This document shows, piece after piece, positions 355-43,800 of a stretch of 64,000 nucleotides of DNA (positions are counted from its first letter, which is position 1; each line of letters starts with the position of its first letter). The translations under genes and the position numbers were made by a program. Origin of the DNA: the human T2T-CHM13v2.0 reference genome, Homo sapiens; the NCBI GenBank assembly GCA_009914755.4, contig CP068257.2, forward strand, positions 26,208,001 through 26,272,000, given 5' to 3'. The notes under the pieces are model-generated. The model was not told the DNA's origin, did no database searches, and worked only from the letters and a program-made list of their open reading frames with translations.

Positions 355-369
355 TATATATATATATAT
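355..369. repeat. (TA)n microsatellite, about 7-8 units
   Basis: Direct reading shows tatatatatatatat. Confidence 0.8.
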
Positions 370-766: not shown

Positions 767-781
767 GCACACACACACACC
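767..781. repeat. (CA)n microsatellite, about 7 units
   Basis: Direct reading shows cacacacacacacac. Confidence 0.8.
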
Positions 782-2477
782 ATTATTGGTGTATTCTCAT
801 AGCCTTGAAACACTAATGTCATGTTGATGTCTGCCTTTTCTTTCTCTGCTACCTCATCCCTCATCCTTAGATTATTCTAAAAGATTCAATTAGATCAAGT
901 TGGCTAATTATATTTTTCAGATCCTCTCTACCCTTACCAATTTTTTGTTTAACAAATTTTATAAATTTCTGGCAGGAGACTGTTGAAATCCCCATGGATG
1001 ACTGTGGTTTTACTATTTTACCTTTCAGTTTTAATAGGTTTTATATTATGTATGTTGAAGTAATGCTACTGTGTGCATACATATTTATTATTTACATGTC
1101 TTCTTGTTGTATTTTCCCCTTTGTCATTATGAAATGTTATTCTTCATCCCCAGTGATATTTCCTGTTCTGATGTCTACTTTGCTCATCACAGTTTTAGTG
1201 GGTTTTGGTTTGTTTGTTTTTCTTTTTTTGGGTTCAAGTAAGTTTCTTATAAAGAGCATACAGTTGAGTCTGGGTTTTTAATCCTGTCTTATGATCTCTG
1301 CCTTTTAATAAGAATATTTTGTCAATTTACATTTAATGCAATTATCACTATGATTGAGTGTATAACTACTCTCTTGCTATATGTTTTCTAAATGTCTCAT
1401 CATTTTTGTTCATTTTCCCCCTTTTTCTGCCTTCTTTTGAATTGAGAATTTAGTTTTTAAGATCCGCTTTTATCTCCACTATTAATTTTTAACCATTCAT
1501 TTTTATTTTAATTTTAATGATTGATATAGGGCTCATAAAATAGACAGTTCTTGTTTTCCTTAGTTTTGATATGCAAAGGCTTTAGTTATCATGCTTTAGT
1601 TACATAGCACAAGCCCCAAAACAAAACAGTTTAGGTACAGCAGTGTATTAATTGGGACTAACGGCTTGAAGTACAAATTTTTTCTGTGAACTCTTCAGTC
1701 CATAAAACTATTAGGTAAATATCAGATTTGCATCAAGATCCATGGTTAGTCATGTCACTTTTCTCAATATCTATCAATAATCAATTATTATGTACCTGTT
1801 TTGTATTCATACAGAGACAGGAAAGCATACAGTAGTGTTGCTTCTTTGTCTTTCAGTGATAAAGGCATGACATTATACAAAAATTGATAAATGACAGAAA
1901 ATCAGCCAACGAAAATGAAAGTGTGGCAAATAAATGAAAGTGTCAACACCGAAAGTGAAATTCAAATTGGATCTTGATGGATTTATAGAAGCAATAGTTA
2001 ATTGCGAGAATGCTGACACAACTACCATCCAAGAGATTTCATATGTGCAGTCATGGGAACTTATGGAAGACATATTTACAACTTAAATGAAGAAGCTGAT
2101 TGCAGGGAAAAGATGAAAGTTTTCCCAGAAGATGTGATGCTGAGGAAAAAAATTACATTGAAGAAACTCTCCAAGATGTTTAAAGACAATGAACGCACAA
2201 ACAATAAAATGTTGGACAAATAATCAAAGTTATAAAGAAGAATGGCAATTCACTAAAGCATAAAAAATATTGAGAGTCACATGATGAGAAGTTGTGCAAA
2301 TACTGTACAAACTACTCTGAATACATTTCAAAGAAATATATAAAACATGTATTTTAATTATCAATGTTTTAAATTATAGTGTACTATATAGATACTAGTT
2401 TCAGGGTTGTTTTTTGGTTTTTACTTTTCTATACATATATAACAGTAAGACATTTTTAATATTTTGACAAAGGTGTT

Positions 2478-2780
<303 letters not shown>

Positions 2781-3019
2781 ACAAGTGTTTTTAATGATTG
2801 CAGGAAGAAGTTTATGTTTTCCCATTAATTATTAAGATAACTTTGCCCAGTTTCAACTTGCACAGTGGTTACTAAGGCCCCACACTGATGTGCATAAAGA
2901 GTACCATCTGTACTTTTTTTTTAACTTAAAACACACAACCTTCAAATAATATTTATAATACCTGCTATATAGTTTTAAAATATTGCAATTCTGAAGCCAG
3001 CATTACCATGATACCAAAA

Positions 3020-4225
3020 CCTGGCAACCTATAATCCTGAAATGTAAGACCTCAAACTATAAGAATGCTAGAAGTAATCCTAGGAAACACCATTCTGAAA
3101 ATCAGCCTTGGGCAAGAATTTATGACTAAGTCCTCAAAAGCAATTTCAACAAAACAAAAATTGACAAGTGGGACCTAATTAAACTAAAGAGCTTCTGCAC
3201 AGTAAAAGAAACTATCAACAGAGCAAGCAAACACCCCACAGCATGGGCGAAAATATTCACAAACAATATGTTCAAGAAAAGTCTCATATCTGGAATCTAT
3301 AAGGAACTTAAACAATTAAACAAGCAAAAAATGAATAACTTAATTTTAATAATGAGCAAAACCATGAACAGATACTTCTCAAAAGAAGACATACAAGTGG
3401 CTAACAAACATGAAAAAAAATGCTCGTAATCACTGATCTCAGAGAAATGTAAATCAAAACCAAAATGAGATATCGTCTCACACTAGCCAGAGTGGCTATT
3501 ATTAAAGAACTCCAAAAATGTTTAGTAATATCTTTTATTGAAAAGTTCCTGCCAAGGCTATAGAAAAAGGGGAATGTTTATACACTGTTGGTGGGAATGT
3601 AAGTTAGTTCAGCCACTGAGGAAAGTAGTTTGGAGATTTCTCAAAGAGCTTAAAACAGAACTACCATTTGACTTAATAATCCCATTTCTGGTTATATATC
3701 CATAAGAAAATAAACTATTCTACCAAAAAGACACATAGACTTGTATGTTCATTGTAGCACTGTTCCCAATAGCAAAGATATGGAATCAACCTAAGTGCCC
3801 ATCAGCAGCAGATTGGATAAAGAGAATATGGTACATATACACTATGGAATACTACACAGCCATAATAAAGAACAAAACCGTCTATTTGCAGCAACATGGA
3901 TGCAACTTGCAGCCATTATCTTAAGCGAATTAATGCAGAAACAGAAAATCAAATACCACACGTTCTCACGTATAAATGGGAGTTAAACACAGGGTACTCA
4001 TGGACATAAAAAGGGCAACAATAGAAACTGGACACTGCTAGAGGGAGAGGAAGGGAGGGAGGGAGACCGGGGTTGAAAAACTATCTGTTGGGTACTATGC
4101 TCAGTACCTGGGAGATGGGCTCAACCGTACCACCAACCTCAGCATCACACAATATATCCATGTAACAAACCTGTACATGTATTCCATAAATTTAAAATAA
4201 ATGTTCAAATAAAAAAACAAATATT
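3020..4225 (+). mobile_element. L1 3' end fragment (ORF2 C-terminal region plus 3' UTR), older primate subfamily (L1PA/L1PB-like)
   Basis: The sense strand contains the L1 ORF2 motifs aaattgacaagtgggacctaattaaactaaagagcttctgcacag ... atgaaaaaaaatgctcgtaatcactgatctcagagaaatgtaaatcaaaaccaaaatgagatatcgtctcacac ... ctgttggtgggaatgtaagttagttcagccactg. The ORF 3795-3986 (WMQLAAIILSELMQKQKIKYHTFSRINGS) matches the ORF2p C-terminus. It ends in an A-rich tail (aaataaaaaaacaaat). Confidence 0.85.
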
Positions 4226-4275
4226 ATAACTGTCTATCCATTTTCTCTCTACAGTTCTTTGCCCTACTGTCATAG

Positions 4276-4708
<433 letters not shown>

Positions 4709-4751
4709 CTATGTATTATTTCTAACATGAGTCATCTCTTTTTAAAAATGT

Positions 4752-4795
4752 AAATTATCCCAGCACCATTTATTAAATAGGAATCCTTTCCCCCA
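4752..4795 (-). mobile_element. Short inverted L1 ORF2 fragment
   Basis: The run cccagcaccatttattaaataggaatcctttcccc matches the reverse complement of the L1 ORF2 segment ggggaaaggattccctatttaataaatggtgctggg. It sits only about 8 bp upstream of a plus-oriented L1 3' end. Confidence 0.6.
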
Positions 4796-4803
4796 TATCC
4801 AAG

Positions 4804-5205
4804 GATGATAGACTGGATTAAGAAAATGTGGCACATATACACCATGGAATACTATGCAGCCATAAAAAATGATGAGTTCATGTCCTTTATAGGGACATGG
4901 ATGAAGCTGGAAACCATCATTCTCAGCAAACTATCGCATGGACAAAAAACCAAACACCGCATGTTCTCACTCATAGGTGGGAACTGAACAATGAGAACAC
5001 ATGGACACAGGAAGGGGAACATCACACACTGGGGCCTGTTGTGGGGTGGGGGCAGGGGGGAGGGATAGCATTAGGAGATATACCTAATGTTAAATGACAA
5101 GTTAATGGGTGCAGCACACCAACATGGCACATGTATACATGTGTAACAAACCTGCACGTTGTGCACATGTACCCTAAAACTTAAAGTATAATAATAAAGA
5201 AAGTA
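4804..5205 (+). mobile_element. L1 3' end, relatively young primate subfamily (L1PA-like), 5'-truncated, about 400 bp
   Basis: It is nearly identical to the L1PA 3' end: atagactggattaagaaaatgtggcacatatacaccatggaatactatgcagccataaaaaatgatgagttcatgtcctttatagggacatggatgaagctggaaaccatcattctcagcaaactatcgcatggacaaaaaaccaaacaccgcatgttctcactcataggtgggaactgaacaatgagaacacatggacacaggaaggggaacatcacacactggggcctgttgtggggtgggggcagggggagggatagc ... The ORF 4805-4987 (MIDWIKKMWHIYTMEYYAAIKNDEFMSFIGTWMKLETIILSKLSHGQKTKHRMFSLIGGN) is the ORF2p C-terminus. The 3' UTR variant positions taaatgacaagttaatggg ... acgttgtgcacatg indicate a pre-L1HS subfamily. Confidence 0.9.
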
Positions 5206-8200
5206 AATTATCATCCTGTTACTTTCTTTTTGTCTACCATTTCTTTCAGTCCCAGTATGCTGTTGATAAAATCTATCAGCTACTTATTGTCAAAATAGCT
5301 TTATTTGCTTTCATTTTTGTAAATTTCTTGATTTTTTTAGAATTTTCACTTGAATGAATTTCCAGGTTGACTTGTTTCTCTTGCTTTAAGTAATAGAATG
5401 TTGCGCTATGGTCTTCTGATATACATGCTTATCATAAAAAGTAGTTATTACATTGGTTCCATTGTCAATAATACATCTCTTTTTCTCCAACTGCTTTTAA
5501 GTTTTCTTTTTAAAAATAGCTTTCTTCAACTTAATCCTTTTATTCATTTTGATTTGAGTTCACTGCACTTCTGTTACCTGTTGGTTTATAGTTTTACCAA
5601 GTTTTAAAAATATCTCAACCACTACCTTTATAAATAGTTTTTGCCCTCCCCCCATTTCCTGGGGTTTCAATTATGTGTGTTGTTAAGCTGCTTAATATTT
5701 TCTAATTCCATAATTTCTGTCTTTTCTTGGTCTGTTTCTATTAACTTTTTGTCTTGTTTTGGATCTTTTTTTGTTTATATGCATTTCTGTTTTTTTTTTT
5801 TAATGTCTAAGGGAAATTCTGAATTGTACGTTGTTAGGATCTGGATTTTGTTTTATTTCTTTAAAGAGAGATGAACTCTGTTTTCAAATGCAGTTAAGTT
5901 ATCTGAGATCAATGGTGATATTTTTTGCTTTTAAATGTGATTATAATGGCTTCAGAGCCTTGACTCTAGAGCTGATTCACCCCCCTACTAAGGTGTGATT
6001 ATTCTGAGAACTCTATCGGATATTATAAGTTTCTCACTCTGGCTGGAGCACATACGGGTTCTTCTAAGGCCCACATGACCTCCAGGAATTTCTCTGGCCC
6101 ACTGCTAATGAAGACTCATTTTTCTATCTCATGGAGTTTTCCTTTATGTAGGCACAGTTCAGTTCTCACTCAAGGACTCCAGAGAACCTCTATGTAAATC
6201 TCCACAGTTCTCTCTCTGTGCAGCCCTCTTCTCTCTGTCAGTCTGCCTTGATGATTCTAGTCACCTTGGCCTCCATAAACTTTGATATCTTGCTCTTAAA
6301 TTCAGCAAATCATGATATTCTCTCTCAGATTGTCTCATACCATGCTGGAGGCTGGAAATCACTTTCAGTAAGTATGCTGGCACAATAAAGGGTATATATT
6401 GTTTTCTTTCTCTCAGAAATCACAGTTTTGTGCTGCCTATTTTTTTCATGCAATAAAAACAGTTTATATACTTGTTCTGGATTTCTAAACGTTTACAAAA
6501 GTTGCATAATTCTGGTAGTCATTAATTCTTCATCAGCAACAGTTGAATTCTCAGAGACTTGTTTAACTGCCCAGATGACAATTATCCTATTGCTTTATTC
6601 TTCAAATCAAGTAAGTGAATCAAAGTCAGTCTTAGTGATGATCAGTATCTCTATATTTTTGTCTAAAAAACAGAATGCTATTTTAATCTATAGATTCAAG
6701 TGTCATTTTATCTCTTTGAAGTTTTCAACAAGTAATGTTTCCGGTATTAACGTTCTTTCTTATTCTTCAAAACATCAAGTAGGCAGAGGTTGAGTCTCCA
6801 TTGTCACGCATCTATATTTACCAACGCCGTATTAAGGATTTTTATTATGCCTTTGTCTTTTCATATAATTTACTTTTGTGTGGTTTCTACTAGATATTCA
6901 CTATTTTTCTGGATGTAATTGCTGATGTATAGTGCCTATGTATTTCTTTCTTACATAATTCCTTAGTTGTTCACTTCAATTTCTAAATTGAGATTAACTT
7001 CAATTTGTCCTCTGATTACTTTGGTAATTCTACTTGTGATGCAGTTTTAGCAACTGTATCTTGTTTATGCTTTGTGTTCATTTTCATATTTAGAAAATAG
7101 AACACCAGGCATATATATTTTACTGATTTTTTTCTCTCTGCATTCCTTGTAGAACAGATCCAGGTATTAGCTAAGGGATCCTCTGGGGCAGGAGTGGTGT
7201 GGCATTGCAGTTTGTATCTTTTTTTAAATCCATGATTTTGTAATGGAATACCGTCACACTAATTTTCTTACTCCCTAAGTACTGGGTAATTGTTTCTCCT
7301 CCTATTAGCATTCACTTTTCTAAAGGTAATGTGGCTCGGATTTAGATTCCTAGGTTTCTAAATCTACATTTCTAATCTCTATATTATCACATGCTGGTTA
7401 ATGCTTTTCTCTTTTGCTCCTCTCCACTTCTGTGAGCTTCATTCTGTTTGGAACTCAGAGTATATGAAATGAATAGAGTACATCAGCCTGAATTCTCTTA
7501 CAACTTCAAATTCTTTCCATTTTATGGATAGACAACACTGAGTTACTCTATAGTGACTTTCCTACTTTTATTAATATCATGGTCACATTATTCCATAAAA
7601 TCTTACCATTTTAAGAAAAATAGTTTTTGAATTACATCTCCCAGAGTAGCAGCAATGATATCTAGAAAAAGTGATCATCCTGAACATGTACTGATTATAC
7701 ATGTAAAAGCACTCACTCTGATCACTCCTTGTTTTAGTTGAAATATAACAGTGTTTGGCAGGTTTGCTTCTCCGTTTATGGTTTCAGGCTATAGTTGTTT
7801 CTCTGAAGATGCTTATCTTCTTATTTTTTCTTGTTTTCTTTTTGTTCTCAATGAAATGAATTTTAATAGAAGAATGAAATGTAAAATATTCAAATTCAGT
7901 GTCTTATAGTGTCTATAGTTTTGGGCACTTATTTTAAAACTGAATAATAATTTTCAATGCATATGACTCATTCTCTACCCTCCTTTCTTCCATTCTTCTG
8001 AATGTGTGACAAACAAGTATAGATGCTCTGAATGGTAATAAATTAAAAAATCATTTCATGATGGTCCTATTCCTGTAATTCTATTTTCCAATTGACCTCC
8101 ATTTCCTATCCTAACTGCATAAAAGTGAAATAAATCAGTAACTATATAATTTTAAAAATAAGTGGTCTGAATGATTTTGCTGGGATAAGTAATAAAAAAT

Positions 8201-9530: not shown

Positions 9531-9906
9531 TAATTTTTTTTTTTTTTTTTGAACTGGAGTCTCACTCTGTCACCCAGGCTGCAGTGCAGTGGCGCAGTCT
9601 AGGCTCACTGCAACCTCCACCTCCCCGGTTCAAGAAATTCTCCTGCCTCAGCCTCCCAAGTAGCTGGGATTCAAGCAATTCTCCTGCCTCAGCCTCCCAA
9701 GTAGCTGGGATTCAAGCAATTCTCCTGCCAAAGCCTCCCAAGTAGCTGGCACCAGCCACCACACCTGGTTAAATTTTTTTGTATTTTTAGTAAAGACGGG
9801 GTTTTACCATATTGGCCATGCTGGTCTTGAACTCCTGACCTTGTGATCTGCCTGCCTTGGCCTCCCGAAGTGTTGGGATTACAGGCATGAGCCACCATGC
9901 CCAACC
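9531..9906 (-). mobile_element. Alu SINE, antisense, with poly(T) tail, internal 41-bp tandem triplication and TSD
   Basis: A 20-nt poly(T) is followed by gaactggagtctcactctgtcacccaggctgcagtgcagtggcgc ... ggcctcccgaagtgttgggattacaggcatgagccaccatgcccaacc. Flanking repeats acatacttaatt (9519-9530) and acataattaatt (9907-9918) are consistent with a TSD. Confidence 0.88.
9637..9750. repeat. 41-bp unit repeated about 2.8 times inside the Alu at 9531-9906
   Basis: The unit attctcctgcctcagcctcccaagtagctgggattcaagca occurs perfectly twice (9637-9677 and 9678-9718), followed by a degraded third copy. It derives from the Alu right-arm segment cctcagcctcccgagtagctgggattacagg. Confidence 0.85.
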
Positions 9907-12275: not shown

Positions 12276-13582
12276 GAGTCCCTGTACAGTGAGCAATCTT
12301 TTGGGGTCTTATCTTCTCAGCACTGAAGAATTTCTATGTGGACACTAAAGTAATATTAAAACCACTCACTCTCACTGGTAATTTACAAAATACAGTTTTA
12401 ATAAACAGCAATATCGACAACAACAATAGCAGTGATGAAACCTCTGAGGCAAGAGAGAATGTTAATTTTAGCAAAGAGTGTCTTGTCAACTGGACAAGCC
12501 TTACCAGTTCCTAGCCTCTAGTTTGTATACATTTATGCAATCATTTTGAATATCTACTCCCTGCATGCTGGTAAAAAAAATATGTGTCAGGACATTACAT
12601 GTGAAGGGATAATTCAACATTTAAGTTTTTAAGAGTATGTTTTTTTCAGATCTTGTTCCCCAAAGTTAAACATTGTGGTAGATTGAGACTTTCATTATTA
12701 AATATTCTTACAGAAAACAGGAAATCATAAGGTCTTATTTATAATCATTAAGAGAAACCTGAAGGCCAATTACTCATTGAGTGTCAGGCAACTCAATTAC
12801 ATTATTGTGTAGGACTTTGGTATGATAAAAGAATCCTCAGAACTATATTAAAAAATTGTGAGAAGGAGTTTACACAGGTCAGCCTATAAAACTACTGCAT
12901 AATTTCTATCTGTAAATTAAAATAGAAAAGAAAAAAGATTGAATTAAATATGATAATAGTAAATTTCATTTCTAAGTGTGCCAAACTAGCTGGCCTTTCC
13001 TATTCTTGAATAAAATTATTCTGGTTGCCATAATGCATCCCGAAGCTTACCTAGATGAGGAGAAATTCAAAGTATTCCAACGTCTGGCCTCATGAATAGA
13101 TCAAGCCTTGGGGGAAACCAGTGATCTCTTGGCAACAGGACCAGAAGGTACGTAATCTCTTGTTTTAATTATATTTCATCTGCTGAAAAATTGCTTATCT
13201 CTCTGAGATTTATCTTAGAGATGACTGAAAGTAATTTTGTGACCTTCACATTGTCCATATCTAAGTTAGATAATTGAAAATTTGGTGAGGATCCCAAAAC
13301 CTCAAGTATGTATGGAGATTAAGATTTCCAACTCTGAAGAAAAACTGTCAGGTTCAAATCTTGGTCCTGTTCACCTCTGATGACTAGCTCTGTGGTTACG
13401 AAACCCTCCTGCCTCCCTTTATCCATCTGAAAAAAAAAATTGGTATGACTACATGGTTTGGCAAGTGGGGGCTAACTGAGCTACTAGACAACTTACACCG
13501 TAAGTTGACACAAAGCACATGTACAATAAGCATAATTAATATTACATTATTTTATTTTGTATGAGGTGGCAACAAATAGTTA

Positions 13583-13812
13583 TCACATGCTTAATTTTAA
13601 ATAAGCATTAATAGTGGTAGAAATTAAGGAAATATATTAGAGAAAACTCTTAGAAATATGAAGGCTCTATCTAGTTATATTTGTTTCTTATGTATCACAT
13701 CCTCAATTTTAAATAAGAAGCATTAATAATAGTAGAAATTAAGAAAATACATTTATTAGAAAAGTCTATTAGAAATATCAAGGCTTAATCTAATTATATT
13801 TGTTTGTTAACT
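13583..13812. repeat. Local tandem duplication, two copies of about 111-119 bp
   Basis: Copy 1 reads cacatgcttaattttaaataagcattaatagtggtagaaattaaggaaatatattagagaaaactcttagaaatatgaaggctctatctagttatatttgtttcttatgtat. Copy 2 reads cacatcctcaattttaaataagaagcattaataatagtagaaattaagaaaatacatttattagaaaagtctattagaaatatcaaggcttaatctaattatatttgtttgttaactg. By eye they are about 80% identical. Confidence 0.8.
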
Positions 13813-13970: not shown

Positions 13971-14284
<314 letters not shown>

Positions 14285-23628: not shown

Positions 23629-25195
23629 TTTTTTTCAACATTTATTTTAGATTCATGGGGCATATGTGCTGCTTTGTTACTTGGATATATTGTCTGATGT
23701 TAAGGTTTGGGGTATAAGTGATCCCATTTACCAAGGTACTACACATAGTACACAAAAGCAGGTTTTTCAACCCTTGCCTCTACTCCTCCTTCACTCCACC
23801 TGCTAGCTGTACCCAGTGTCTATTTTTGCCATCTTTACGTTTATGAGTATCTAATATTTAGCTCCAATTTATAATTGAGAAAAGACTGTATTTGGTTTTC
23901 TGTTACTGCATTAATCTGCTTAGGATAATGGCCTCCAGCTACATCTGTGTTGCTGCAAAGGACATGATTTTGTTATTTTTATGGCTGTGTAGTGTTCCAT
24001 CATGTATATGTGCCATGTTTTCTTTATCCATTCCACCATTAGTGGGCACCTAGGTTGATTTCATGGCTGCTATTGTGAATAGGACTGCGAGGAACATATG
24101 AGAGCCTATGTATTATTGCTAAAACAATTTGTTTTCTTTTGGATACATAACCAGTAATGGGATTGCTGGGTCAAATCGTAATTCCCTTTTAAAGTCTTTA
24201 AAAAATCTCCAAACTACTTTCCATAGTGGCTGAACTAATTTAGATTTCCACTGAAAGTGTGCAAGCATTCCCTTTTCTCCATAGCCTTGCCAGCATCTGT
24301 TATTTTTTGATGTTTTAATAATACCCATTCTGACTGATGTGAGATGGAACCTCATTGTAGTGATTTGCATTTCTCTGATGATTAGTGATGAGAATTTTTT
24401 ATATGTTTGTAAACCACTTTTATGTCTTCTTCTGAGAGGTGTCTATTCATGTCTTTTGTTCATTTGTATTCATTGTTTTATGCTTATTAATTGGTTTAAT
24501 TTTCTTATAGATTTGGGGTATTGGGACCTTTGTTGGAAGTGTAGTTTGTGAGTATTTTATCTCATTCTGTAGGTTGCCTGTTTTCTCTGTTGATAATTTC
24601 TTTTACTGTGCAGAGCTCTTTAATTTAATTAGATCCCACTTGTCAATTTTTGTTTTGGTTGCAATTGCTTTTGAGGACTTAGTCATAAATTATTTCCCAA
24701 GGCCAATGTCCAGAATGGTGTTTCCTAGGATTCTTGTAGTTTGAGGTCTTATGTTTAAATCTTTAATCCAACCTCAGATAATTTTTTTATATGGTGAAAG
24801 GTGGGGTTGAGTTTCATTCTTCTACATATCGCTACCCAACTAGCCCAGCACCATTTATTGAATAGGGAGTAGTCTTTTCCCTGTTGGTTATTTTTCTTAA
24901 CTTTGTTAAAGATCAGATATCTGTAGGTGTGCAGCTTTATTTCTGGGTTCTCTGTTCCGTTCCATTGGTCTATGTGTTTTTGTACCAATACCATGCTGTT
25001 CTGGCACCAGCACCATGCTATTTTGGTTACTGTCACCTGATAGTATATTTTGAAGTCAGCAAACATGATGCCTCTGGCTTTGTTCTTTGTGATTAAGATT
25101 ACTTTGGCTATTTTGGCTGTTTGGAGTTTCATATGAATTATTAGTTTTTTTCTGGTTTTATAGAAGAAAAATAAACGACATGGTAGTTTGGAACT
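23629..25195 (-). mobile_element. Second L1 3' portion (L1P-like; ORF2 C-terminal half plus 3' UTR), antisense, with ORF2 reading-frame remnants
   Basis: The antisense L1 3' end reads tttattttagattcatggggcatatgtgctgctttgttacttggatatattgtctgatgttaaggtttggggtataagtgatcccatttacc ... ggctgtgtagtgttccatcatgtatatgtgccatgttttctttatccattccaccattagtgggcacctaggttgatttc ... cctcattgtagtgatttgcatttctctgatgattagtgatgagaattttttatatgtttg ... ctagcccagcaccatttattgaatagggagtagtcttttccc. Minus-strand ORFs 24119-24370 (MQITTMRFHLTSVRMGIIKTSKNNRCWQGYGEKGML ... FDPAIPLL) and 24755-25309 ([18 protein letters not shown] ... [29 protein letters not shown]) match ORF2p. Confidence 0.85.
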
Positions 25196-25196
25196 T

Positions 25197-27016
25197 CCTA
25201 GAGACTTATTGAATGGCTCTGACCAAAATACTAATAGTGATATGGACAATAAAGTCCAGGCTGAAGTGGTCTCAGATGGAGATGAGGAACTTGTTGGGAA
25301 CTGAAGCAAAGGTGACTCTTGTTATACTTTAGCAAAGAGACTGGCAGCATTTTTCCCCTGCCCTAAAGATTTGTGGAACTTTGAACTTGAGAGAGATGAT
25401 TTAGGGCATCTGGTGCAATAAATTTCTAAGGAGCAAAGCATTCAAGAAGTGACTTGGGTACTGTTAAAAACATTCAGTTTTATTTATTCAGAAAGGTAGG
25501 ATTTGGAGTTGAAATTTATGTTTAAAAGGGAAGCAGATCATAAAAGTTTGGTAAATTTGTAGCCTGATGATGTGATAGAAAAGAAAAACCCATTTTCTGA
25601 GGAGAAATTCAAGCTGGCTGTAGAAATTTGCATAAGTAATAAGGAGCCAAATGTTAATCATGAAGACAATGGGGAAAATGTCTCCAGGGCATGTCAGAGG
25701 TCTTTATGGCAGCCCCTCCCATCACAGGCCCAGAGGCCTAGGAGGAAAAAATGGTTTCATAGGTTGGGTCCAGGGCCTTGCTGCTTTGAACACTCTCCAA
25801 ACTTGCTCCCCTGCATCCCAGCCATGGCTAAGAGGAGCCAGTGTATGTAGATCAGGTCATTGCTTCAGAGGGTGCAAGTCTCAAGCCTTGGCAGCTTACA
25901 TGTGGCTTTGGGCCTCCAGGTACACAGAAATCAAGAATTGAGGTTTGAGAACCTCCACATAGATTTCAGAGGATTTGTGGAAATGTCTGGATGTCCAGGC
26001 AGAGGTGTGCTGCAGGGGCAGAGTCCTCATGGAAAACCTCATGTTAGCGCAGAGTGGAAGGGAAATGTGGAGTCAAGCACCCTCTGGGGCACTGCCTGGT
26101 GGAGCTGTGAGAAGAGGGCCACCATCATCTGGACTCCAAAATGGTAGATCCACTGACAACGTGCACCATGCACCTGGAAAAACTGCAGACACTCAATGCC
26201 AGCTCATGAAAGCAGCCAGAAGGGGAGCTGTACCCTGTAAAGACACAGGGGCAGAGCTGCCTAAGGTCATGGGCGCCTACCTCTTGCATCAGTGAGACCT
26301 CGATGTGAGACATGGAGAAAAAAGGATCATTTTGGAGCTTTAAGATTTGACTGCTCTGCTGGATTTTGGATTTCTATGGGGCCTGTAGCCCCTTCATTTT
26401 GCCAATTTTTCCCATCTGGAATAGCTGTATTTACACAATGCCTGTATCTCCATTGTATCTAGGAAGTAACTAACTTGCTTTTGATTTTACAGGCTCATAG
26501 GCAGAAGGGACTTGCCTTGTCTTAGATGAGACTTTGGACTGTGGACTTTTGAGTTAATGCTGAAATGAGTTAAGATTTTGGAGGACTGTTGGGAAAGCAT
26601 GATTGGTTTTGAAATGTGAGGATGAGATTTGGGAGGGGCCACGGGTGGAATATTATTTGCTGTGTCCCCACTCAAATCTCATCCAGAATTTTAGCTCTCA
26701 CAATCCCCATGTGTTGTGGGAGGGGCCCAGTGGGAAGTAATTGAATCTTAGAAGTGGGTCTTTCCCATGCTGTTCTTGTGATAGTAAATAAGTCTCATGA
26801 CTCATGAGATCTGATGGTTTGATAAAGGGGAGTTCCCCTGCACACACTCTTTCTTGCCTGCTGCCATGTAAGACGTGTTTGCTTCCCCTTTGCTTTCCAC
26901 CATGATTGTGAGGCCTCCCCAGCCATGTGGATTTGTGAGTCAATTAAAACTTTCCTTTATAAATTACCCAATCCCAAGTATGTCTTTATTAGCAGCCTGA
27001 GAACAGACTAATACAA
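25197..27016 (+). mobile_element. THE1-type ERVL-MaLR element: internal region (25197-26649) plus 3' LTR (26650-27016), no recognisable 5' LTR
   Basis: The internal part starts cctagagacttattgaatggctctgaccaaaatactaatagtgatatggacaataaagtccaggctgaagtggtctcagatggagatgagg and its 3' end reads ggatcattttggagctttaagatttgactgctctgctggattttggatttctatggggcc ... gattttacaggctcataggcagaagggacttgccttgtcttagatgag ... gttgggaaagcatgattggttttgaaatgtgaggatgagatttgggagggg. The LTR reads gaatattatttgctgtgtccccactcaaatctcatccagaattttagctctcacaatccccatgtgttgtgggaggggcccagtgggaagtaattgaatct ... tgtgaggcctccccagccatgtgg ... tttataaattacccaatcccaagtatgtctttattagcagcctgagaacagactaatacaa. The partially open plus-strand frames 25572-26295 are decayed gag-like remnants. 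Confidence 0.85.
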
Positions 27017-27790
27017 CAGGATTGTGGGAAGTTCTCCAGGCATTCAGAGCACCCACCTTCCTGAATTAGGAGTAGGGAAACCAACTGCACCAAGATCTTT
27101 GCACAGAAGAGGTGGGGTGATTCAGGCTGCTGAACCAGGCAAGCAGAAGCTTTGAATGCCTGGAGATCTACCTGAGCATGTAGCAGCAAAGGCCCCTGCA
27201 CCAAGACCTCTGGCCAGGAAGGGTGGGGCATATCAAGCTGCTGATCCAGGCAAGTTGGTGCTCTGAATGTCTGGAGGTCTGCCTGAGTGTGGAGTAGAGA
27301 GGGCCATTCTGTATCATGATCTACGTCCAGGAAGGTTGGGTGGCTCAGGCTGCTGAACCAGAAGAACAGGTGCTTTAACTGCCTGGAGATCTGCCCAGGC
27401 ATAAAGCAGAGAAGGCCTCCCTGCACCGTAGCTCTGAACAGAAAGAATAGTGGTGAGTCAGGCTGCTGATTCAAGTGAGTAAATGTCTGGAGGCCTGCCT
27501 GGTTATGGAGCAGAGAAAGCCCCACTGCACCAGGATCTCTGTACAGGAAGGGTGGAGCAGGTTAGGCTCTGAACCCAGTGAACAGATGCTCCTAATGCCT
27601 GGAGATCTGCCTTGGCATAAAGTGTAGGGGGCTGCTCTGCACCACAATCTATGTTCATGAAGAGTTGAGTGGCTAAGGCTGCTAGTCCAGGAAAGCAGCT
27701 GCGCCAAATGCCTGAATTTTTGCCTGGGGTTTGAGCAGAGGACCTCACTGCACTATTATCTTGGTAGGGCAGATGGAGACACCTAGAAAT
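27017..27790. repeat. Tandem array, 7 units of about 104-113 bp (mostly 111-113), immediately 3' of the THE1 LTR
   Basis: Unit starts (gctgctgaaccagg / gctgctgatccagg / gctgctgaaccaga / gctgctgattcaag / gctctgaacccagt / gctgctagtccagg) fall at 27126, 27237, 27349, 27462, 27566 and 27677. Each unit contains gcctggagatctgcc ... ggccc/aaggcccctgcaccaagacctctg ... caggaagggtgg. Because the period is close to 3n, long open minus-strand frames result (26989-27525 at 178 aa and 27503-27943 at 146 aa). Confidence 0.85.
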
Positions 27791-28559
27791 GGCACACACA
27801 GACCAATTCCAGGTCACTAGGCTGGCCTTGGCTGCAAATCTCACCACCCAGAAGAAACTGCAGCTGTAGCAGCACTCCTCCTGCCCCAGGCTTGTGACAA
27901 GGGAAAGCACAATTTCAGTGTCCACTCTGGATGTGCTTTCCATAGCTCTGGTGGTGGAGGCCCTTATCCCACTCTAGAGCAGGCCCCCCCCCCCAATCTC
28001 TGGTTCAAGAATAAAATTCCTGAGTGGTCATGCTGCCAAGTTGCCAAAGAATGCCTGACTTTGTATGCCTGGATTAAAAATGTTATCCTGTTCTTGGTCC
28101 CAGGTCTGGGAAAATGTCTGCAGCTTTTCCCAGTGTCTTTCCCTCACAACATCTCCAAGCCTCTCCCCATGCTGGCTCTAGGGCTTGGGAGAAAGACAGT
28201 GCTGTTTCTCGACCTGGGTCGCTTGAGTTCCCAATGGAAAAATGAGTCACATAGGGAGGCTCTCTGCCTCTCTCGTATCCTCCTGGAGCTTCAATCACTT
28301 TTACCAGGCAGATACCATCATGGAGACTGTCTGTCAGTGTTCTTTCTCCTCCACAGGATCTGGAGTGCCCTTCACAATTCTGATGATTTCCCATTTTCTT
28401 CTTGAATTAAAGCTCACAGAGTTGATCTTTATGCACTACTTACTACTTCCAAGTGGCTGAGGCATCATAAAAGCCTCTAATCTGCCACCTTGGGAAAAAC
28501 AAATAGGGATTCTTAATTTGTTTTACTTGTGACGTATTTGTCTGGTTTTACTAGTCTTA

Positions 28560-38234: not shown

Positions 38235-39839
38235 GATTTTTTTTGTCTCTTTCAATTTTCTTATGCTGATCACGACGATCAGAAGACTGGTTTTTAGACT
38301 ACTGGTAACTACTACAAGTTTGAAATATTTAATTTGAGTTAATTCATATACCATTATGAGAAAGTTTGAGAGAAACTTAATGCTCAATTAACAAATAATT
38401 TAAATATTATTTCCATTTTATTACTTGATTCCCCAAGTCTTTCAGTGGCTGCCTTGGATAATAGGTATGCTTTGGAATGTACACGTGAGCTTTCAAAAGC
38501 AAAACAAAATGAATTATGACATTCTTTTATGAAGTAGAATTTCTGAGAGTAATTCAGTGTAAGTAAAATCAATATAAACATCTATATTACCCCTGATTGA
38601 TGGGAAAAGGATAATATACTATCAAAACTACCTTGAAAGTAATCATAAAGTGGATTTTCCACTCAGGATAACTTTTCACAGTTTTATTCCCTAGAAGAGA
38701 ATGTTACGTGCTATTAAACCTCATGAACCCTTGACCTTGGTTCATATAAAGACAGTGAGAACTGGTCCCAGTTATTAAAGAAATTTGGCATAGACACATT
38801 CTTGCTTTTATAGTAAGAAATAATAAGGTTTTCTTTCACTCTGGGGAGAGGCTATTAAAGCTAAATATTACAATGATTTTTAAGGGAGAGAGTTCGTTTT
38901 GACAATCCAAGAGAAGTGTATGTTTCGCATAAATACATAATGTAGAGGAGATTTGTGATTTTATAAAGATGACCAAAAGTAAAAACAAAGTAAGTGTGTT
39001 AACATATGGAAGAATAAGAAACATTCCTGTTAGACCAGCTTCTAAAAACAATTTGAATTATTAGACGGAGATTACATTTCATTTTATAAAGAGCAAAAAT
39101 TAGATAGGTAATTGTCCTGTTACAAATTATTGGAGAATATTTTATATATTTAAATAATTCACTACCAATGACTGCATGAACAGAAATACAGATTACATTT
39201 ACTGTCCCTCTCTATTAGAGGAAGTTTAATTTTATGATTGTGTCTGGAATTGGTGGGTTCTTGGTCTGACTTCAAGAATGATGCCGCGGACCTTCGCAGC
39301 GAGTGTTACAATTCTTAAAGATGGTGTGTCTGGAGTCTGTTCCTTCATATTTTCAGATGCGTCCCGAGTTTCTTCTTTCTGGTGGGTTCGTGGGTTCGTG
39401 GTCGCGCTGACTTCAGGGGTGAAGCTGCAGACCTTCCCCGTGAGTGTTACAGCTCTTAAAGGTGGCACATCTGGAGTTGTCATTCCTTCCGGTGGGTTCC
39501 TGGTCTCGCTGGCCTCAGGACTGAAACTGCAGACCTTCCAGATGAGTGTTACAGTTCATAAAGGTGGTGTCCAGAGTTGTTGGTTCCTCCCATCCAGAGT
39601 TGTTCCACTCTCCCCATGGTTCATGGTCTCGCTGGCTTCAGCAGTTAAGCCGCAGACCTGCACTGTGAGTGTTACAGCTTATAAAGGCGGCACAGACCCA
39701 AAGAGTGAACAGCAGCAATATTTATTGCAAAGAGGGAAAGAACAAAGCCACCACAGCATGGAAGGTGACCTGAGAGGGTTGCAGCTGCTGGCTCGGGTGG
39801 TCTGCTTTTATTCCCTTATCTGGTCCCACCCACATCCTG

Positions 39840-39965
39840 CTGATTGGTCCATTTTACAGAGAGCTGATTGGTCCATTTTACAGAGAGCTGATTGGTACGT
39901 TTGGACAGAGTGCTTATTGGTGTGTTTACAAACCTTTAGCTAGACACAGAGTGCTGATTGGTGCG
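39840..39965 (+). promoter_or_regulatory. Cluster of 4-5 CCAAT-box (ATTGG, reverse orientation) repeats in LTR12 U3, the canonical NF-Y site array of this LTR family
   Basis: The motif ctgattggt occurs at 39840, 39864, 39887 and 39952, with a degenerate tgcttattggtg at 39911. LTR12 promoter activity is reported in the literature to depend on such NF-Y and Sp1 sites. Confidence 0.6.
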
Positions 39966-40019
39966 TTTACAATCCTTTAGCTAGATGGAAAAGTTCTCCA
40001 AGTCCCTACCCGGGCCAGA

Positions 40020-40489
40020 AGCCCAGCCGGTTTCACCTCTCACTGGCACTGGCTGCGGGACTTTGCGGCACTTATCCCGGGCACTCCGGCAGCCTAGAGA
40101 AAGCTCCTCCCAGACAATCAAGAGGAAAAGAGGGGAAGCAAGAAAGAGACGGAGACCCGCCATCGTGGCCAAAGACCCCGCGAAGAGGGAACGGTGGTCG
40201 ACGCACGGGACCCAGCCTCCGATCAAGCCCAGCAGGCGCTGAGATCACGCCCACCCAGACCGCACGCCGGCCGGCCAGCGCTGGGCGCAGCCCCGGCTCC
40301 TGCTGGCACCTCTCTCTTCACACTTCCCCAAGAGCAGAGGGAGCCGGCTCAGGCCTCGGCCAGCCCCAGAGAAGGGCCCTCATAGTGCAGAGGTGTGCTG
40401 AAGGGCTCCTGGAGCGCAGCCAGAGCGGACGCGGAGGCCGAGGAAGCGCCGAGAGCCAGCGAGGGCTGCTAGCACGTTGTCACCTCTCA
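40020..40489 (+). promoter_or_regulatory. CpG-rich, GC-rich segment (3' part of LTR12), the only CpG-island-like stretch in the window
   Basis: Dense CpGs are visible, for example cgccatcgtggccaaagaccccgcgaagagggaacggtggtcgacgcacgggacc ... ccgcacgccggccggccagcgctgggcgcagccccggctcc ... gcgcagccagagcggacgcggaggccgaggaagcgccgagagccagcgagggc. This contrasts with near-absence of CpG elsewhere. Confidence 0.7.
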
Positions 40490-40538
40490 TGATGTTGTAA
40501 AATAAGAAAGGGTAAATGTTATTTAAGAATTCCTTCCT

Positions 40539-40888
<350 letters not shown>

Positions 40889-43800
40889 TCAAAAGATACA
40901 AAAAATCTATAAGAGTTAAGCAAAGCTATATTTATTTTGCTGCAACACTACTATGCACAGTGACATGGTCAAGTTGCTTTTTATAATGATTTATAGTGAT
41001 ATTAATTTGCGTCAGTCATTTTCATGACCCCAAAGCCAACTCAATAATACCAGAAAATACTTGTTTGCTTGCCTACATTTTGTAATAATCCAATGTCCTG
41101 AAATAAAAATGAATATTTTCTTCCTGGAAATAAAGTGAGATAATTTTCTTCTTCCAAGAGAGTCATGAAACAAGAACAGAATGACATTATACTAAACTAT
41201 TTCACAAATATGGGTCAACAGTGGAGGCTTTTTTGTTCATTTATGTAAATTTGATTTGGCTCTATTTTCCTGAGTTGCATTTTATGCTTCTTTCACCTGC
41301 CTTGCCAAATGAAAAGAAAAATCATTTATTTATTAAAACATACACTAATACAAGAAAATAATTTCACTCTTCACAAACTTTGGCATTATGAAGTCACTGG
41401 TTACTGGAGATTTAATTTCTGTAACATATCTGAAGTGCTTATTTTTTTCTTTCCATGAAGGAAACCTTTTGGAATTAAGATATGGTACATTTAACTAAAC
41501 GAGGATTGCATTTGCTGTTTCTGTGATAACATTTTACATCTGAAATTCCAATAAATATTTCTCTTCTTGCTTTGAGGTGGTTTAGTTAATCATTCAGGTG
41601 GTTGGCTTTCATAAGAAGTAAAGGCGCGCCAGCATTTATAGTTTCCCAGAGTTCGTTTTTTGCCTCAAGCTTGTATTTATTCTTATTACACTCACTAGCT
41701 TAGATACCAGGTGAATACCTGGGAGAAAGAAAAAATTAATTTAAAAAGTAATAAAAATAAAAGAACAAAAAAACACAAAACTATTCAACATGCCAGCAAT
41801 CCTGTTCTCTTAAGAAACCTACCTGTTTTTTTCAATGCGTATAAGTTTTAGCATTTTATAGCAATTAGATGAGTCTCTATATCATTAGAACTTAGGTCCT
41901 TGGAATTAGGACAATACTATTTTCTGCAATAAATATTTGGCTCTAGAAATCTATTTTGACCTGTACTATAATGCATAGCAGCAGAATTAAAATATTGTGT
42001 GTTATCATCAAAAGTTTCAGCCTTATTTTTTCACATTTGAATATAAATATTAAAATGATGAAGGCCCCTTTTAGTCTTTTTATTCTTAGAGAAGGCTGAA
42101 TAAATGTTATAAAACAAGAAAAAGACTGTAAAAGAATAATTGCTAATTATAAAAAAAATTTTAAATATATCATCAAGCCATAATAGCGGTTCTCTATTTC
42201 CTTTTTTAATTTAAAATGGACATGAACAAACTTTCATAATACCTTTGTGGAATCTAGTTAGAGCTTTACTCCATTACAGAACAGAAACTTTTCACTGTGA
42301 AGAGATCAAAAGCACTGCTTTCCTTTGTGGCAAATGAACATTTAATTATCTAACGCTAAATAAAATTTGCTGGCAAAAGATATGCTAGTAAAAAAACAAC
42401 ACAAGGCTTTTTTCTGACAGTATGATTTACATAGCTACATTTTCATTACTTTTATTTTTCTACATAACTAGTGTCTTTTCAGTTGCAAATGTTTGACATT
42501 CTGACAAGTAGTGTGGCAGAGTCTTAGATTATAGGTTGCATTTAGCCAAAAGAAAGACTTCGAATGGAATTTTTTTCTATTGACACACTTTCTAACAACA
42601 TACTTATTTTCTAAAAAGGTTTTTATAACTTAGTGTTGATAATATCAAATATCTAAGCAATTTTGCTTAAAAAGCATAGAACACCAATATTTAATGAAGA
42701 TTAGTTAAATAGCACACATTGACTACTTGTTTAAAAATATTCAGAAAAGTTTTGACACATGCTAAAGTGCTGAAGTATGGTTTTGGCCTTCCATAAAAAT
42801 AATATATTGTGCATAAATGGAAGCAGAATGAAGAAAGCGATGAGAAAACATCTAGAAAATTGCTAGTGTGGTAAACATATTAAAATAATTTGGCATGGGA
42901 AATGTTTTTTCTCTTTTAAATTTAATTATGGTAAGAAAGAAGAGCATTTTAAAGAAGATGTTAATTTCCATCAACAATATGCAAGAGAAACTAATGTAGA
43001 GTATGTATATTAGAGAAACACATAACTGCATATATGTATGGTTAAAACTTAATGCCTTCTGGCTTTGTCATTTATAAGAATTATTACCTACACAAGGAGT
43101 ACTGTGCTGAACCCTTTGCATTTCCTTAGTTTTATCACATAAAAGCAAACACATCTCCATTTTCTAGATTTTCTTTCTTTTTTTTTTTTTTTTTTTGGTG
43201 TTCACCTGGTATTTACCTCTAAATTTCTAAATAACTGTGCAAAGGAGGGTTAACCCAATAGATGAGATTGCTCAAACCTTCCACATTCCCAAGAAAAATC
43301 TATTTTCCGGACTAGTCCCTGGCTGGCTCATGGAAGCTTAAGCACTGGGCTTCTCAGAGTCATGAAAATAAGGTCGCTCCACTTTTTACTCTTTGGTTCT
43401 TGGACTCATACAGTCTATCTTAATGGTTAAATGACCGTCAGGTCAACACACATTCTGCATCTCAAAGGACAACACTACAATCCCACGCATATTATCTCCA
43501 AGTTTATGCTTAGCTTCACTTTTAATTTTCTCAGGCCTCACCTTTTTGGGTGATATGGGGTTTAGTATGCAACCGTCTTGTGTCCATTAACACACCTCTT
43601 TCACCATAAAACAGGTTTCTTTGCCTGTGAGTATATAATACAGGGTCCCATGCCAATATATCTGTGAACAATACTATCCTTAAGTAGTAGTATGGTCCTA
43701 GCCATTGCTGGCAAGAAAAGCAAATTTTAAATGAGCCTTACTCAAAACCAACTGCTCCCCTTTTTGGAATGATCCTAAATGCTCAACTTGCAACCAAGTG

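What the first reader, a model, noticed from the sequence alone, without database searches (positions are those of the whole stretch)
39238..40489. HERV9 LTR12 solo LTR with intact CCAAT-box array and the only CpG-rich block in the window: candidate alternative promoter
This about 1.25-kb element is collinear with the LTR12 (HERV9) consensus. It keeps the family's U3 tandem repeats (about 4 units of 95-100 bp, 39262-39700). It keeps the repeated gctgattggt / ATTGG (reverse CCAAT) boxes at 39840-39965, which in this LTR family are the NF-Y binding sites needed for promoter activity. It keeps a strongly CpG-rich 3' half (40020-40489), although the rest of the 64 kb is almost CpG-free. In established literature LTR12 copies act as germline and testis promoters, first exons of chimeric transcripts and lncRNAs, and are de-repressed by HDAC inhibitors. 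A copy that has kept its CpGs and CCAAT boxes in a gene desert is the most plausible transcriptionally active element here, with plus-strand transcripts reading towards the Alu at 40539 and beyond. The 221-aa plus-strand ORF at 39278-39943 is only the in-frame readout of the U3 tandem repeats and is not a gene.
Basis: partly seen in the sequence, partly recalled or inferred. Interest (0 to 1): 0.5.

Follow-up and report, generated by a model that had tools for sequence, protein, structure and literature searches.

The report
Ordinary ERV9 solo LTR, minus strand

Summary
The observed features are real. A 1251-bp element (39239-40489), flanked by a 4-bp target-site duplication (TGAT), is collinear end to end with independent LTR12/ERV9 LTR copies that I recovered from human DNA in public metagenome and genome contigs. 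It carries four long repeats and five CCAAT boxes. It also has a CpG-island-grade block (o/e 0.68, against 0.195 for the rest of the window).

The orientation in the finding is wrong. Every strand-specific LTR12 signal lies on the minus strand:
- the CCAAT boxes;
- the AATAAAA TATA-like box, 28 nt before the GCCAGCAG initiator motif;
- the AGATAA site;
- the AATAAA signal in R;
- the U7-complementary motifs.

In proviral copies a polypurine tract abuts the TGAGAGG end. This has three consequences:
- the "U3 tandem repeats" are the U5 B elements;
- the "CpG-rich 3' half" is the 5' U3 extension typical of LTR12C/D/E;
- LTR-driven transcripts would run towards lower coordinates, not towards the Alu at 40539.

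The copy is not LTR12C-like. Its extension is 452 nt against a modal 626 nt, and its initiator palindrome is lost. It is about 10% diverged from the nearest consensus I could build. CpG richness is largely a family trait. Promoter activity could not be tested. Verdict: a known kind of element, of low interest.

The parts
39235..39238 (.). Target-site duplication TGAT (left copy)
   Evidence: Read directly. The identical 4-mer lies at 40490-40493. Another copy (L107) also shows a 4-bp duplication, GTTG.
39239..40489 (-). Solo LTR12 (ERV9 LTR), 1251 bp. The sense strand is the minus strand: 5' TGAGAGGTGACA ... CCAATTCCAGACACA 3'.
   Evidence: Collinear end to end with independent LTR12 copies whose flanks differ. 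123 of 130 fetched loci match it. There is no second copy in the window. Strand.
40038..40489 (-). 5' U3 extension, CpG-rich (452 nt; GC 0.66, 34 CpG, o/e 0.69)
   Evidence: The literature describes a roughly 600-bp 5' extension in LTR12C/D/E that is bound by ZNF676/KAP1 (PMC8767690). The modal length in my sample is 626 nt, and only 5 of 41 copies have 449 nt or fewer.
40112..40245 (-). Segment of the 5' extension found in few sampled copies (a trait of a minority variant)
   Evidence: It does not align to LTR12C-like copies L009 and L004. It is shared with L028 (76% identity across sense 1-627) and in part with L090.
39839..39993 (-). U3 enhancer array (E-type repeats) with five CCAAT boxes at 39961-39957, 39920-39916, 39895-39891, 39871-39867 and 39847-39843. 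Four read CCAATCAG and one reads CCAATAAG.
   Evidence: The array is 189 nt, in the lower third of 89 sampled copies.
39826..39831 (-). GT-box-like GGGTGG. The nearest consensus reads GGGTGGGGCC; this copy reads GGGTGGGACC.
   Evidence: An Sp1 site directly upstream of the TATA-like box is reported for ERV9.
39816..39821 (-). GATA site AGATAA
   Evidence: Present in 75 of 118 sampled promoter cores.
39806..39812 (-). TATA-like box AATAAAA
   Evidence: the only occurrence, on the minus strand. Present in 96 of 118 sampled cores. Its role is described.
39781..39792 (-). Initiator/TSS motif GCCAGCAGCTGC (LTR12C has GCCAGCAGTGGC). The inferred start site is near 39784, 28 nt after the first A of the TATA-like box. 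The GCCANNNNTGGC palindrome is lost.
   Evidence: 43 of 118 cores have the LTR12C form, 51 of 118 keep the palindrome, and the window's 12-mer is seen only once. Literature.
39706..39785 (-). R region (boundaries inferred). It contains AATAAA(T) at 39726-39720, which is the polyadenylation signal and also the 'TATA II' of the literature.
   Evidence: A second AATAAAT/initiator pair is used in the GBP2 and GBP5 LTR12C copies (PMC7641743).
39239..39705 (-). U5 with four B-type repeats (71-nt cores at 39266-39336, 39407-39477, 39509-39579 and 39632-39702)
   Evidence: B elements (72 bp) belong to U5. The distance from the promoter-proximal CCAAT to the LTR 3' end is 610 nt, against modal values of 379 and 481 nt; only 2 of 56 copies are as long.
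39302..39682 (-). Four U7-snRNA-complementary 'HDE-like' motifs (39316-39302, 39457-39443 perfect, 39559-39545, 39682-39668), one per B element
   Evidence: 4 hits, all on the minus strand, 0.13 expected. The motif AAGAGCTGTAACACT with up to 2 mismatches comes from PMC11417402.
40490..40493 (.). Target-site duplication TGAT (right copy)
39278..39943 (+). 221-aa ORF, antisense to the LTR, running through U5, R, the core promoter and part of the CCAAT array. Not a gene.
   Evidence: No Pfam family.

Best explanation
The element is a solo long terminal repeat of the endogenous retrovirus ERV9 (HERV9), family LTR12. It lies on the minus strand at 39239-40489.

Origin. An ERV9 provirus integrated here and made a 4-bp duplication, TGAT (shown). 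Recombination between its two LTRs then removed the internal genes (inferred from a single LTR flanked by the duplication).

Layout, read on the minus strand:
- a CpG-rich 5' U3 extension (40489-40038);
- a short enhancer array with five CCAAT (NF-Y) boxes (39993-39839);
- a GT box, AGATAA, and the AATAAAA TATA-like box;
- the initiator motif 28 nt further on (start site near 39784, inferred);
- a short R region with AATAAA;
- a U5 enlarged to four B repeats, each with a U7-complementary motif.

Expected behaviour, from what is published on the family. The element is probably silent in most somatic cells. If it is de-repressed (germ line, HDAC or DNMT inhibitors), transcription would depend on NF-Y, start near 39784 or at the second TATA/initiator pair near 39700, and run towards lower coordinates.

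This copy is a structurally atypical, fairly diverged member, so it is more likely an inert or weak copy than a used promoter.
For: Identity:
- TG...CA ends and a TGAT duplication.
- Collinear with L009, L004, L001, L005 and L010 and with L028, L123, L107, L090 and L032 along its whole length.
- 123 of 130 fetched loci match.
- In the other copies the flanks change exactly at TGAGAGG and at GACACA.

Strand:
- CCAAT: 0 on the plus strand, 6 on the minus strand.
- AATAAAA 0/1, AATAAA 0/2, initiator motif 0/2, GATA 0/1.
- HDE-like motif 0/4.
- The sense-strand forms of these motifs, and the placement of E repeats in U3 and B repeats in U5, are stated in PMC11853044, PMC7641743 and PMC11417402.
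- The purine tract AGAGGGGGGAT directly precedes TGAGAGG in L071, L076, L119, L130 and L098. A PBS-like TGGCGACCC... follows GGACACA in L024.

Solo status: there is no other copy or fragment of the element in the 64 kb.

Atypical, diverged copy:
- The extension is 452 nt against a modal 626 nt. The distance from the promoter-proximal CCAAT to the LTR 3' end is 610 nt against modal 379 and 481 nt.
- The initiator 12-mer is seen only in this copy among 118 cores.
- Divergence is 10.6% (9.2% outside CpG) from the consensus of the 18 nearest copies.

Activity prior:
- About 100 of more than 2000 LTR12C copies respond to a DNA-methylation inhibitor.
- Drug-induced start sites are mainly in LTR12C and unidirectional.
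- NF-Y-bound LTR12 copies in K562 cells are mostly in closed chromatin.
Against: - No Dfam or RepeatMasker model was available. Family membership rests on literature motifs and on copies recovered from human DNA in public contigs. The subfamily name (LTR12D/E-like is my guess) is untested.
- The CpG o/e of the 5' extension (0.69) is the second highest of 43 sampled copies. That could reflect low germline methylation and hence some activity. However, CpG density is mid-range, and retention at 21 shared family CpG sites is 48% against a median of 60%.
- Five CCAAT boxes, the TATA-like box, the GATA site and the second TATA/initiator pair are intact, so promoter competence cannot be excluded.
- The divergence estimate is inflated if the consensus I built belongs to a different subfamily.
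Confidence: 0.88

Rival explanations
1. One reading: the LTR is on the plus strand, with U3 repeats at 39262-39700, CCAAT boxes in the middle and a CpG-rich 3' half. It would drive plus-strand transcripts into the Alu at 40539 and beyond.
For: The element has TG...CA ends on either strand, so the ends alone do not decide the strand. Some LTR12 copies are reported to drive bidirectional transcription.
Against: All strand-specific family motifs are on the minus strand. The literature puts 72-bp B repeats in U5 and 41-bp CCAAT repeats in U3. The polypurine tract abuts the TGAGAGG end in proviral copies. The plus strand has no AATAAAA, no AATAAA and no initiator motif.
Confidence: 0.03
2. The same minus-strand solo LTR12, but exapted: an NF-Y-dependent promoter active in the germ line or inducible by HDAC/DNMT inhibitors, or an orientation-independent enhancer, giving a minus-strand lncRNA or an alternative first exon towards lower coordinates.
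For: Five CCAAT boxes, AGATAA, AATAAAA and the second AATAAAT/initiator pair are intact. The 5' extension that coincides with promoter use in LTR12C/D/E is present. CpG o/e is the second highest of 43 copies. LTR12 activation depends on NF-Y (PMC5085097).
Against: The copy is not LTR12C-like. The initiator palindrome is lost. The GT box carries a G-to-A change and the copy is about 10% diverged. Only a small fraction of copies are ever activated. No expression data were available.
Confidence: 0.1
3. The CpG-rich block is a host-gene CpG-island promoter that merely sits next to retroviral debris.
For: It meets the CpG-island thresholds.
Against: The whole block, from its first base (TGAGAGG) on, is homologous to the 5' extension of other LTR12 copies at other loci. 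Comparable CpG content is found across the family (median o/e 0.54, range 0.23-0.72).
Confidence: 0.01
4. The element is one LTR of a full or truncated HERV9 provirus rather than a solo LTR.
For: None beyond the family identity.
Against: Matching 4-bp duplications flank this single LTR. The flanks are AT-rich unique DNA, with no PBS or polypurine tract. There is no second copy within the window, which extends 39 kb on one side and 23 kb on the other.
Confidence: 0.01

Closest known systems
LTR12C solo LTRs used as promoters (for example upstream of GBP2, GBP5, SEMA4D, TP63/GTAp63 and TNFRSF10B)
   Same: Same retroviral family and the same order of parts: 5' extension, CCAAT (NF-Y) repeat array, AATAAAA, initiator, R with AATAAA(T), and U5 B repeats.
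   Different: The 5' extension is 452 nt instead of about 626 nt, and it has a segment that LTR12C-like copies lack. The initiator reads GCCAGCAGCTGC instead of GCCAGCAGTGGC, so the palindrome is lost. There are four B repeats instead of two or three. There are fewer E repeats. No evidence of use as a promoter.
LTR12D / LTR12E (variants of LTR12C with indels that also carry the 5' extension)
   Same: A 5' extension is present, the length is in the 1.2-1.3 kb range, and the architecture relative to LTR12C is rich in indels.
   Different: The assignment is a guess, because no subfamily consensus was available to test it.
[quoted passage not shown]
   Same: CCAAT boxes in tandem U3 repeats that recruit NF-Y, and an AATAAAA box acting as TATA.
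   Different: The published NF-Y/MZF1/GATA-2 sites TCTGTATCTAGCT and GTGGGGA are each one base off here (TCTGTGTCTAGCT, GTAGGGA). The first change removes the GATA core. The nearest-copy consensus also has the TGTC form.

Membership tests
LTR12 (ERV9/HERV9 LTR) | Retroviral LTR ends (TG...CA) with a short target-site duplication | tested here: met
   The ends are TGAGAGG...GACACA. TGAT lies at 39235-39238 and 40490-40493. Copy L107 has a 4-bp GTTG duplication.
LTR12 (ERV9/HERV9 LTR) | Sequence collinearity with independent family copies over the whole length | tested here: met
   Local identity is 66-88%, with the best at 88.5% over 425 nt (L106).
LTR12 (ERV9/HERV9 LTR) | Tandem E-type repeats of about 41 bp with CCAAT boxes in U3 | tested here: met
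   Two 41-nt units plus three 24-25-nt units, giving five CCAAT boxes on the sense (minus) strand.
LTR12 (ERV9/HERV9 LTR) | AATAAAA about 30 nt upstream of the initiator motif GCCAGCAGTGGC (palindrome GCCANNNNTGGC) | tested here: inconclusive
   AATAAAA is present, and the spacing to the motif is 28 nt. The motif has 2 mismatches (GCCAGCAGCTGC) and the palindrome is absent. The palindrome is also absent from 67 of 118 sampled cores.
LTR12 (ERV9/HERV9 LTR) | B-type repeats (72 bp) in U5 | tested here: met
   Four copies of a 71-nt core lie downstream of R on the minus strand.
LTR12C specifically | A 5' extension of about 600 nt and the GCCAGCAGTGGC start motif; consensus length 1577 nt | tested here: not met
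   The extension is 452 nt against a modal 626 nt. The total is 1251 nt against 1577 nt. The start motif differs. A named subfamily call needs Dfam.
Active LTR12 promoter (germ line, or HDACi/DNMTi-inducible) | Transcription start sites within the LTR, NF-Y occupancy, and spliced or read-through transcripts | not testable with these tools
   No CAGE, RNA-seq, ChIP or methylation data and no genome annotation were available.
CpG island (Gardiner-Garden and Frommer thresholds) | At least 200 bp, GC at least 0.5, CpG o/e at least 0.6 | tested here: met
   40020-40489 has GC 0.66 and o/e 0.68. The merged segment 39991-40900, which includes the Alu, has o/e 0.66.
Full-length HERV9 provirus | Internal sequence with a PBS after the 5' LTR, a polypurine tract before the 3' LTR, and a second LTR | tested here: not met
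   The flanks carry neither signal. There is no second LTR in the window. The signals are visible in other sampled copies.

The most novel reading that the evidence does not exclude
This copy represents a minority structural variant of LTR12. It has a short 452-nt 5' extension with a segment (40112-40245) seen in only 1-2 of about 40 sampled copies, and a U5 enlarged to four B repeats. Its unusually high CpG o/e would reflect protection from germline methylation, because it serves as a minus-strand germline promoter or enhancer for an unannotated transcript.
Probability: 0.07. Interest if true: 0.3.

Novelty: already known. Interest (0 to 1): 0.1.

Why it matters
It matters little beyond correct annotation. 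LTR12 solo LTRs number 4,000-6,000 in the human genome and their promoter biology is well described. The practical point is the direction. Anyone checking CAGE, RNA-seq or chimeric transcripts at this locus must look on the minus strand, with start sites near 39.70-39.79 kb and transcripts running towards lower coordinates. They should also treat the CpG-rich block as the upstream part of the LTR, the region reported to be bound by ZNF676/KAP1, and not as its transcribed 3' end.

Tried and rejected
- A scan of viral contigs for the CCAAT-array 23-mer found nothing.
- The search for related loci, using the 85-aa ORF across the odd middle segment as a probe in metagenome contigs, gave 600 pattern hits but none confirmed.
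- Rfam at gathering thresholds over the whole window gave no match.
- Pfam gave no match for the 221-aa ORF or five other ORFs.
- The bacterial promoter/terminator scan is not relevant to a primate sequence and I ignored it.
- Six of the ten genome-contig hits (L002, L003, L006-L008 and most of L004) are bacterial DNA with chance matches to the 20-mer. I did not use them.
- I considered whether 40038-40245 is a foreign insertion, because it did not align to LTR12C-like copies. I rejected this because L028, L123, L107, L090 and L032 share it wholly or in part.
- I considered whether the high CpG content marks an unusually well-preserved copy. I rejected this as a firm conclusion because the measures disagree: o/e ranks 2nd of 43, CpG density is mid-range, and retention at shared sites ranks 29th of 41.
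- I recalled an LTR12C consensus from memory. It gave the lead on orientation, but I did not use it as evidence.
Full report
**What is in the sequence.** Reading 38900-40900 shows a discrete GC-rich element in AT-rich DNA. On the + strand it begins TGTGTCTGG at 39239 and ends CACCTCTCA at 40489. The 4-mer TGAT lies directly outside both ends (39235-39238 and 40490-40493).

The repeat tools confirm the described features:
- Four long direct repeats lie at 39266-39702. The core is 71 nt, the spacing is 141, 102 and 123 nt, and identity to the first copy is 61-77%.
- A 24-nt unit is repeated 3.4 times and a 41-nt unit 2.0 times at 39839-39985.
- Five ATTGG boxes lie at 39843-39961. The whole window has 134 sites on both strands.

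CpG statistics:
- 40020-40489 has GC 0.66, 35 CpG and o/e 0.68.
- The whole element has o/e 0.56.
- The other 62.7 kb has o/e 0.195.

Five other short patches pass CpG-island thresholds. All coincide with Alu copies. The Alu at 40539-40835 merges with the LTR block into one 910-bp segment. The 221-aa ORF at 39278-39943 (+) exists and matches no Pfam family.

**Is it an LTR12?** No Dfam or Repbase library was available, so I fetched family copies from public contigs that contain human DNA. A 20-mer from the CCAAT repeat found ten loci in the GTDB genome contigs. Four short low-coverage contigs and the end of one long contig carry the element. A 20-mer from the promoter-proximal CCAAT box then found 120 contigs, many of them labelled as human skin, gut or oral metagenomes.

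Of the 130 loci, 123 match the window element. Alignments show collinearity from the first to the last base. They also show that the flanks of the other copies become unrelated exactly at TGAGAGGTGACA and after GACACA, which fixes both boundaries. Copy L107 has its own 4-bp duplication, GTTG. A self-comparison finds no other piece of the element in the 64 kb. A single LTR bracketed by a duplication, with no PBS or polypurine tract next to it, is a solo LTR.

**Orientation.** This is where the finding goes wrong. The 2025 review of LTR12 (PMC11853044) states the following for the sense strand:
- U3 carries E repeats of about 41 bp with CCAAT, the GATA motif TCTGTATCTAGCT and GTGGGGA.
- An AATAAAA motif lies about 30 nt upstream of the start site, which sits in GCCAGCAGTGGC.
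- U5 carries 72-bp B repeats.
- LTR12C, LTR12D and LTR12E have an extra stretch of about 600 nt at the 5' end.

PMC7641743 gives the same AATAAAA/initiator pair and a second AATAAAT/initiator pair further downstream.

Motif counts in the element:

| Motif | Plus strand | Minus strand |
|---|---|---|
| CCAAT | 0 | 6 |
| AATAAAA | 0 | 1 |
| AATAAA | 0 | 2 |
| Initiator motif (up to 2 mismatches) | 0 | 2 |
| GATA-E motif | 0 | 1 |
| WGATAR | 0 | 1 |

The U7-complementary "HDE-like" motif AAGAGCTGTAACACT (PMC11417402) occurs four times, all on the minus strand and once per long repeat, against 0.13 expected.

Independent evidence comes from proviral copies in the sample. The purine tract AGAGGGGGGAT directly precedes TGAGAGG in L071, L076, L119, L130 and L098, as a polypurine tract must precede a 3' LTR. 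In L024 the GGACACA end is followed by TTT and then TGGCGACCCAGATGGGAC, which looks like a primer-binding site. My reading of it as tRNA-Arg-like rests on memory only.

The sense strand of the window element is therefore the minus strand.

**Corrected anatomy (minus strand).**
- 40489-40038: 5' U3 extension, 452 nt, CpG-rich.
- 39993-39839: enhancer array with five CCAAT boxes. Four read CCAATCAG and one reads CCAATAAG.
- 39831-39826: GT box.
- 39821-39816: AGATAA.
- 39812-39806: AATAAAA.
- 39792-39781: GCCAGCAGCTGC, which puts the inferred start site near 39784, 28 nt after the first A of AATAAAA.
- About 39785-39706: R (inferred), with AATAAA(T) at 39726-39720.
- 39705-39239: U5 with four B repeats.

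The "CpG-rich 3' half" is the upstream end of U3. The 221-aa ORF is antisense to the LTR.

**How this copy compares with the family.** All figures come from the sampled copies.

*Structure.*
- The 5' extension is 452 nt. The mode is 626 nt, and only 5 of 41 copies have 449 nt or fewer.
- The part at 40112-40245 does not align to LTR12C-like copies. It is shared with L028 and partly with L090. The part at 40038-40111 is shared with L123, L107, L090 and L032. It is therefore a variant-specific stretch, not foreign DNA.
- The CCAAT array (189 nt, 5 boxes) is in the lower third of 89 copies.
- The distance from the proximal CCAAT to the 3' end is 610 nt, against modes of 379 and 481 nt. Only 2 of 56 copies are as long, which corresponds to four B repeats instead of two or three.

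*Promoter core.*
- The initiator 12-mer GCCAGCAGCTGC was seen only in this copy. 43 of 118 cores have the LTR12C form, and 51 of 118 keep the GCCANNNNTGGC palindrome. The review reports that palindrome as essential for proper start-site use.

*Divergence.*
- Over sense 448-872 the copy has the same 425-nt architecture as L106, L095 and L023 (88.5-86.6% pairwise).
- It is 10.6% from the consensus of the 18 nearest copies, or 9.2% outside CpG sites. That places it among the more diverged members of the set.
- This figure is an upper bound, because the consensus may belong to a somewhat different subfamily.

**Has it "kept its CpGs"?** Partly, and not distinctively.
- The 5' extension is CpG-rich across the family. 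The median o/e is 0.54, the interquartile range is 0.49-0.62, and the maximum is 0.72.
- The window copy, at 0.69, ranks second of 43.
- Its GC content is the lowest of the sample, and its CpG density (7.5 per 100 bp) is mid-range.
- At 21 CpG sites inferred from the family alignment of the terminal 244 nt, it retains 10, has 5 typical decay products and 6 other states. That is rank 29 of 41, against a median retention of 60%.

The measures disagree, so I do not treat CpG content as evidence of activity.

**Function.**
- LTR12-driven transcription occurs in testis.
- It is strongly induced by HDAC inhibitors and depends on NF-Y (PMC5085097).
- LTR12C, D and E, which carry the 5' extension, are the subfamilies that drive chimeric gene transcripts, and the extension is bound by the repressor ZNF676 with KAP1 (PMC8767690).
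- U7 snRNA is proposed to restrain NF-Y at LTR12 through the HDE-like motifs.

Activity is nevertheless the exception:
- About 100 of more than 2000 LTR12C copies respond to 5-aza-CdR. About 600 respond even to forced CRISPR activation, and only 20% of those gain promoter marks (PMC11317136).
- Drug-induced start sites are mainly in LTR12C and unidirectional.
- NF-Y-bound LTR12 copies in K562 cells are reported to sit in closed chromatin.

This copy keeps the CCAAT boxes, AGATAA, AATAAAA and the second AATAAAT/initiator pair. It is not LTR12C-like, it has lost the initiator palindrome, it has a G-to-A change in the GT box relative to the nearest consensus, and it is diverged.

My estimate is about 0.1 that it is a used promoter or enhancer, and about 0.03 that any meaningful plus-strand transcription leaves it. 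None of this can be settled without expression, ChIP and methylation data or a genome annotation. I could not test the "gene desert" statement either.

**Verdict.** The family identification and most observations are correct. The strand, the U3/U5 labelling and the predicted direction of transcription are wrong. The element is an ordinary member of a well-known repeat family.

Noticed in passing
window 39302-39682 (minus strand): Each of the four U5 B repeats carries a match to the 15-nt U7-snRNA-complementary 'HDE-like' motif AAGAGCTGTAACACT (one perfect, three with 2 mismatches). Four hits were found against 0.13 expected. The + strand therefore contains U7-like sequence.
   Followed up: partly
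L004 (contig CAVXBB010000006.1, 144,627 bp, labelled as an Acidobacteriaceae MAG), locus 1-8000: The contig looks chimeric. About 5.5 kb has GC near 0.55, and CpG o/e over the first 7 kb is 1.06 (bacterial-like). This is followed by AT-rich DNA and then a human-type LTR12 that starts exactly at TGAGAGG at 7081 and runs to the end of the stored stretch.
   Followed up: partly
L017, L034, L061, L094, L120; also L014, L034, L066: The same LTR12 flank (CTTATACACTTGGCACTGGGAGG...) recurs in five contigs from different metagenome assemblies. Either the same human locus, or a segmentally duplicated one, is repeatedly assembled from contaminating host reads.
   Followed up: no
window 25300-28000: This is the only other GC-rich stretch of the window (GC 0.41-0.53), but it is CpG-poor. 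It contains 111-nt units repeated 1.8 times at 27085-27287. A stretch around 26640-27010 resembles, from memory, a MaLR (THE1/MST-type) LTR on the + strand. ORFs of 146-178 aa there have no Pfam match.
   Followed up: partly
window 24600-25200 (minus strand): This sequence reads like the 3' part of a LINE-1 ORF2 (recognised from memory, not tested). The 184-aa ORF there gave no Pfam hit.
   Followed up: no
window 9560-9901: An Alu copy on the minus strand carries an internal 41-nt triplication at 9629-9749 (3.0 copies, 96% identical), which splits the Alu match into two pieces.
   Followed up: no
window 59113-59314: A long (AAGA)n microsatellite of about 51 units with many interruptions. It accounts for the 130-aa ORF at 58978-59370.
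   Followed up: no
window 13581-13809: An AT-rich 119-nt unit is repeated twice (82% identity), next to an Alu at 13974-14253.
   Followed up: no
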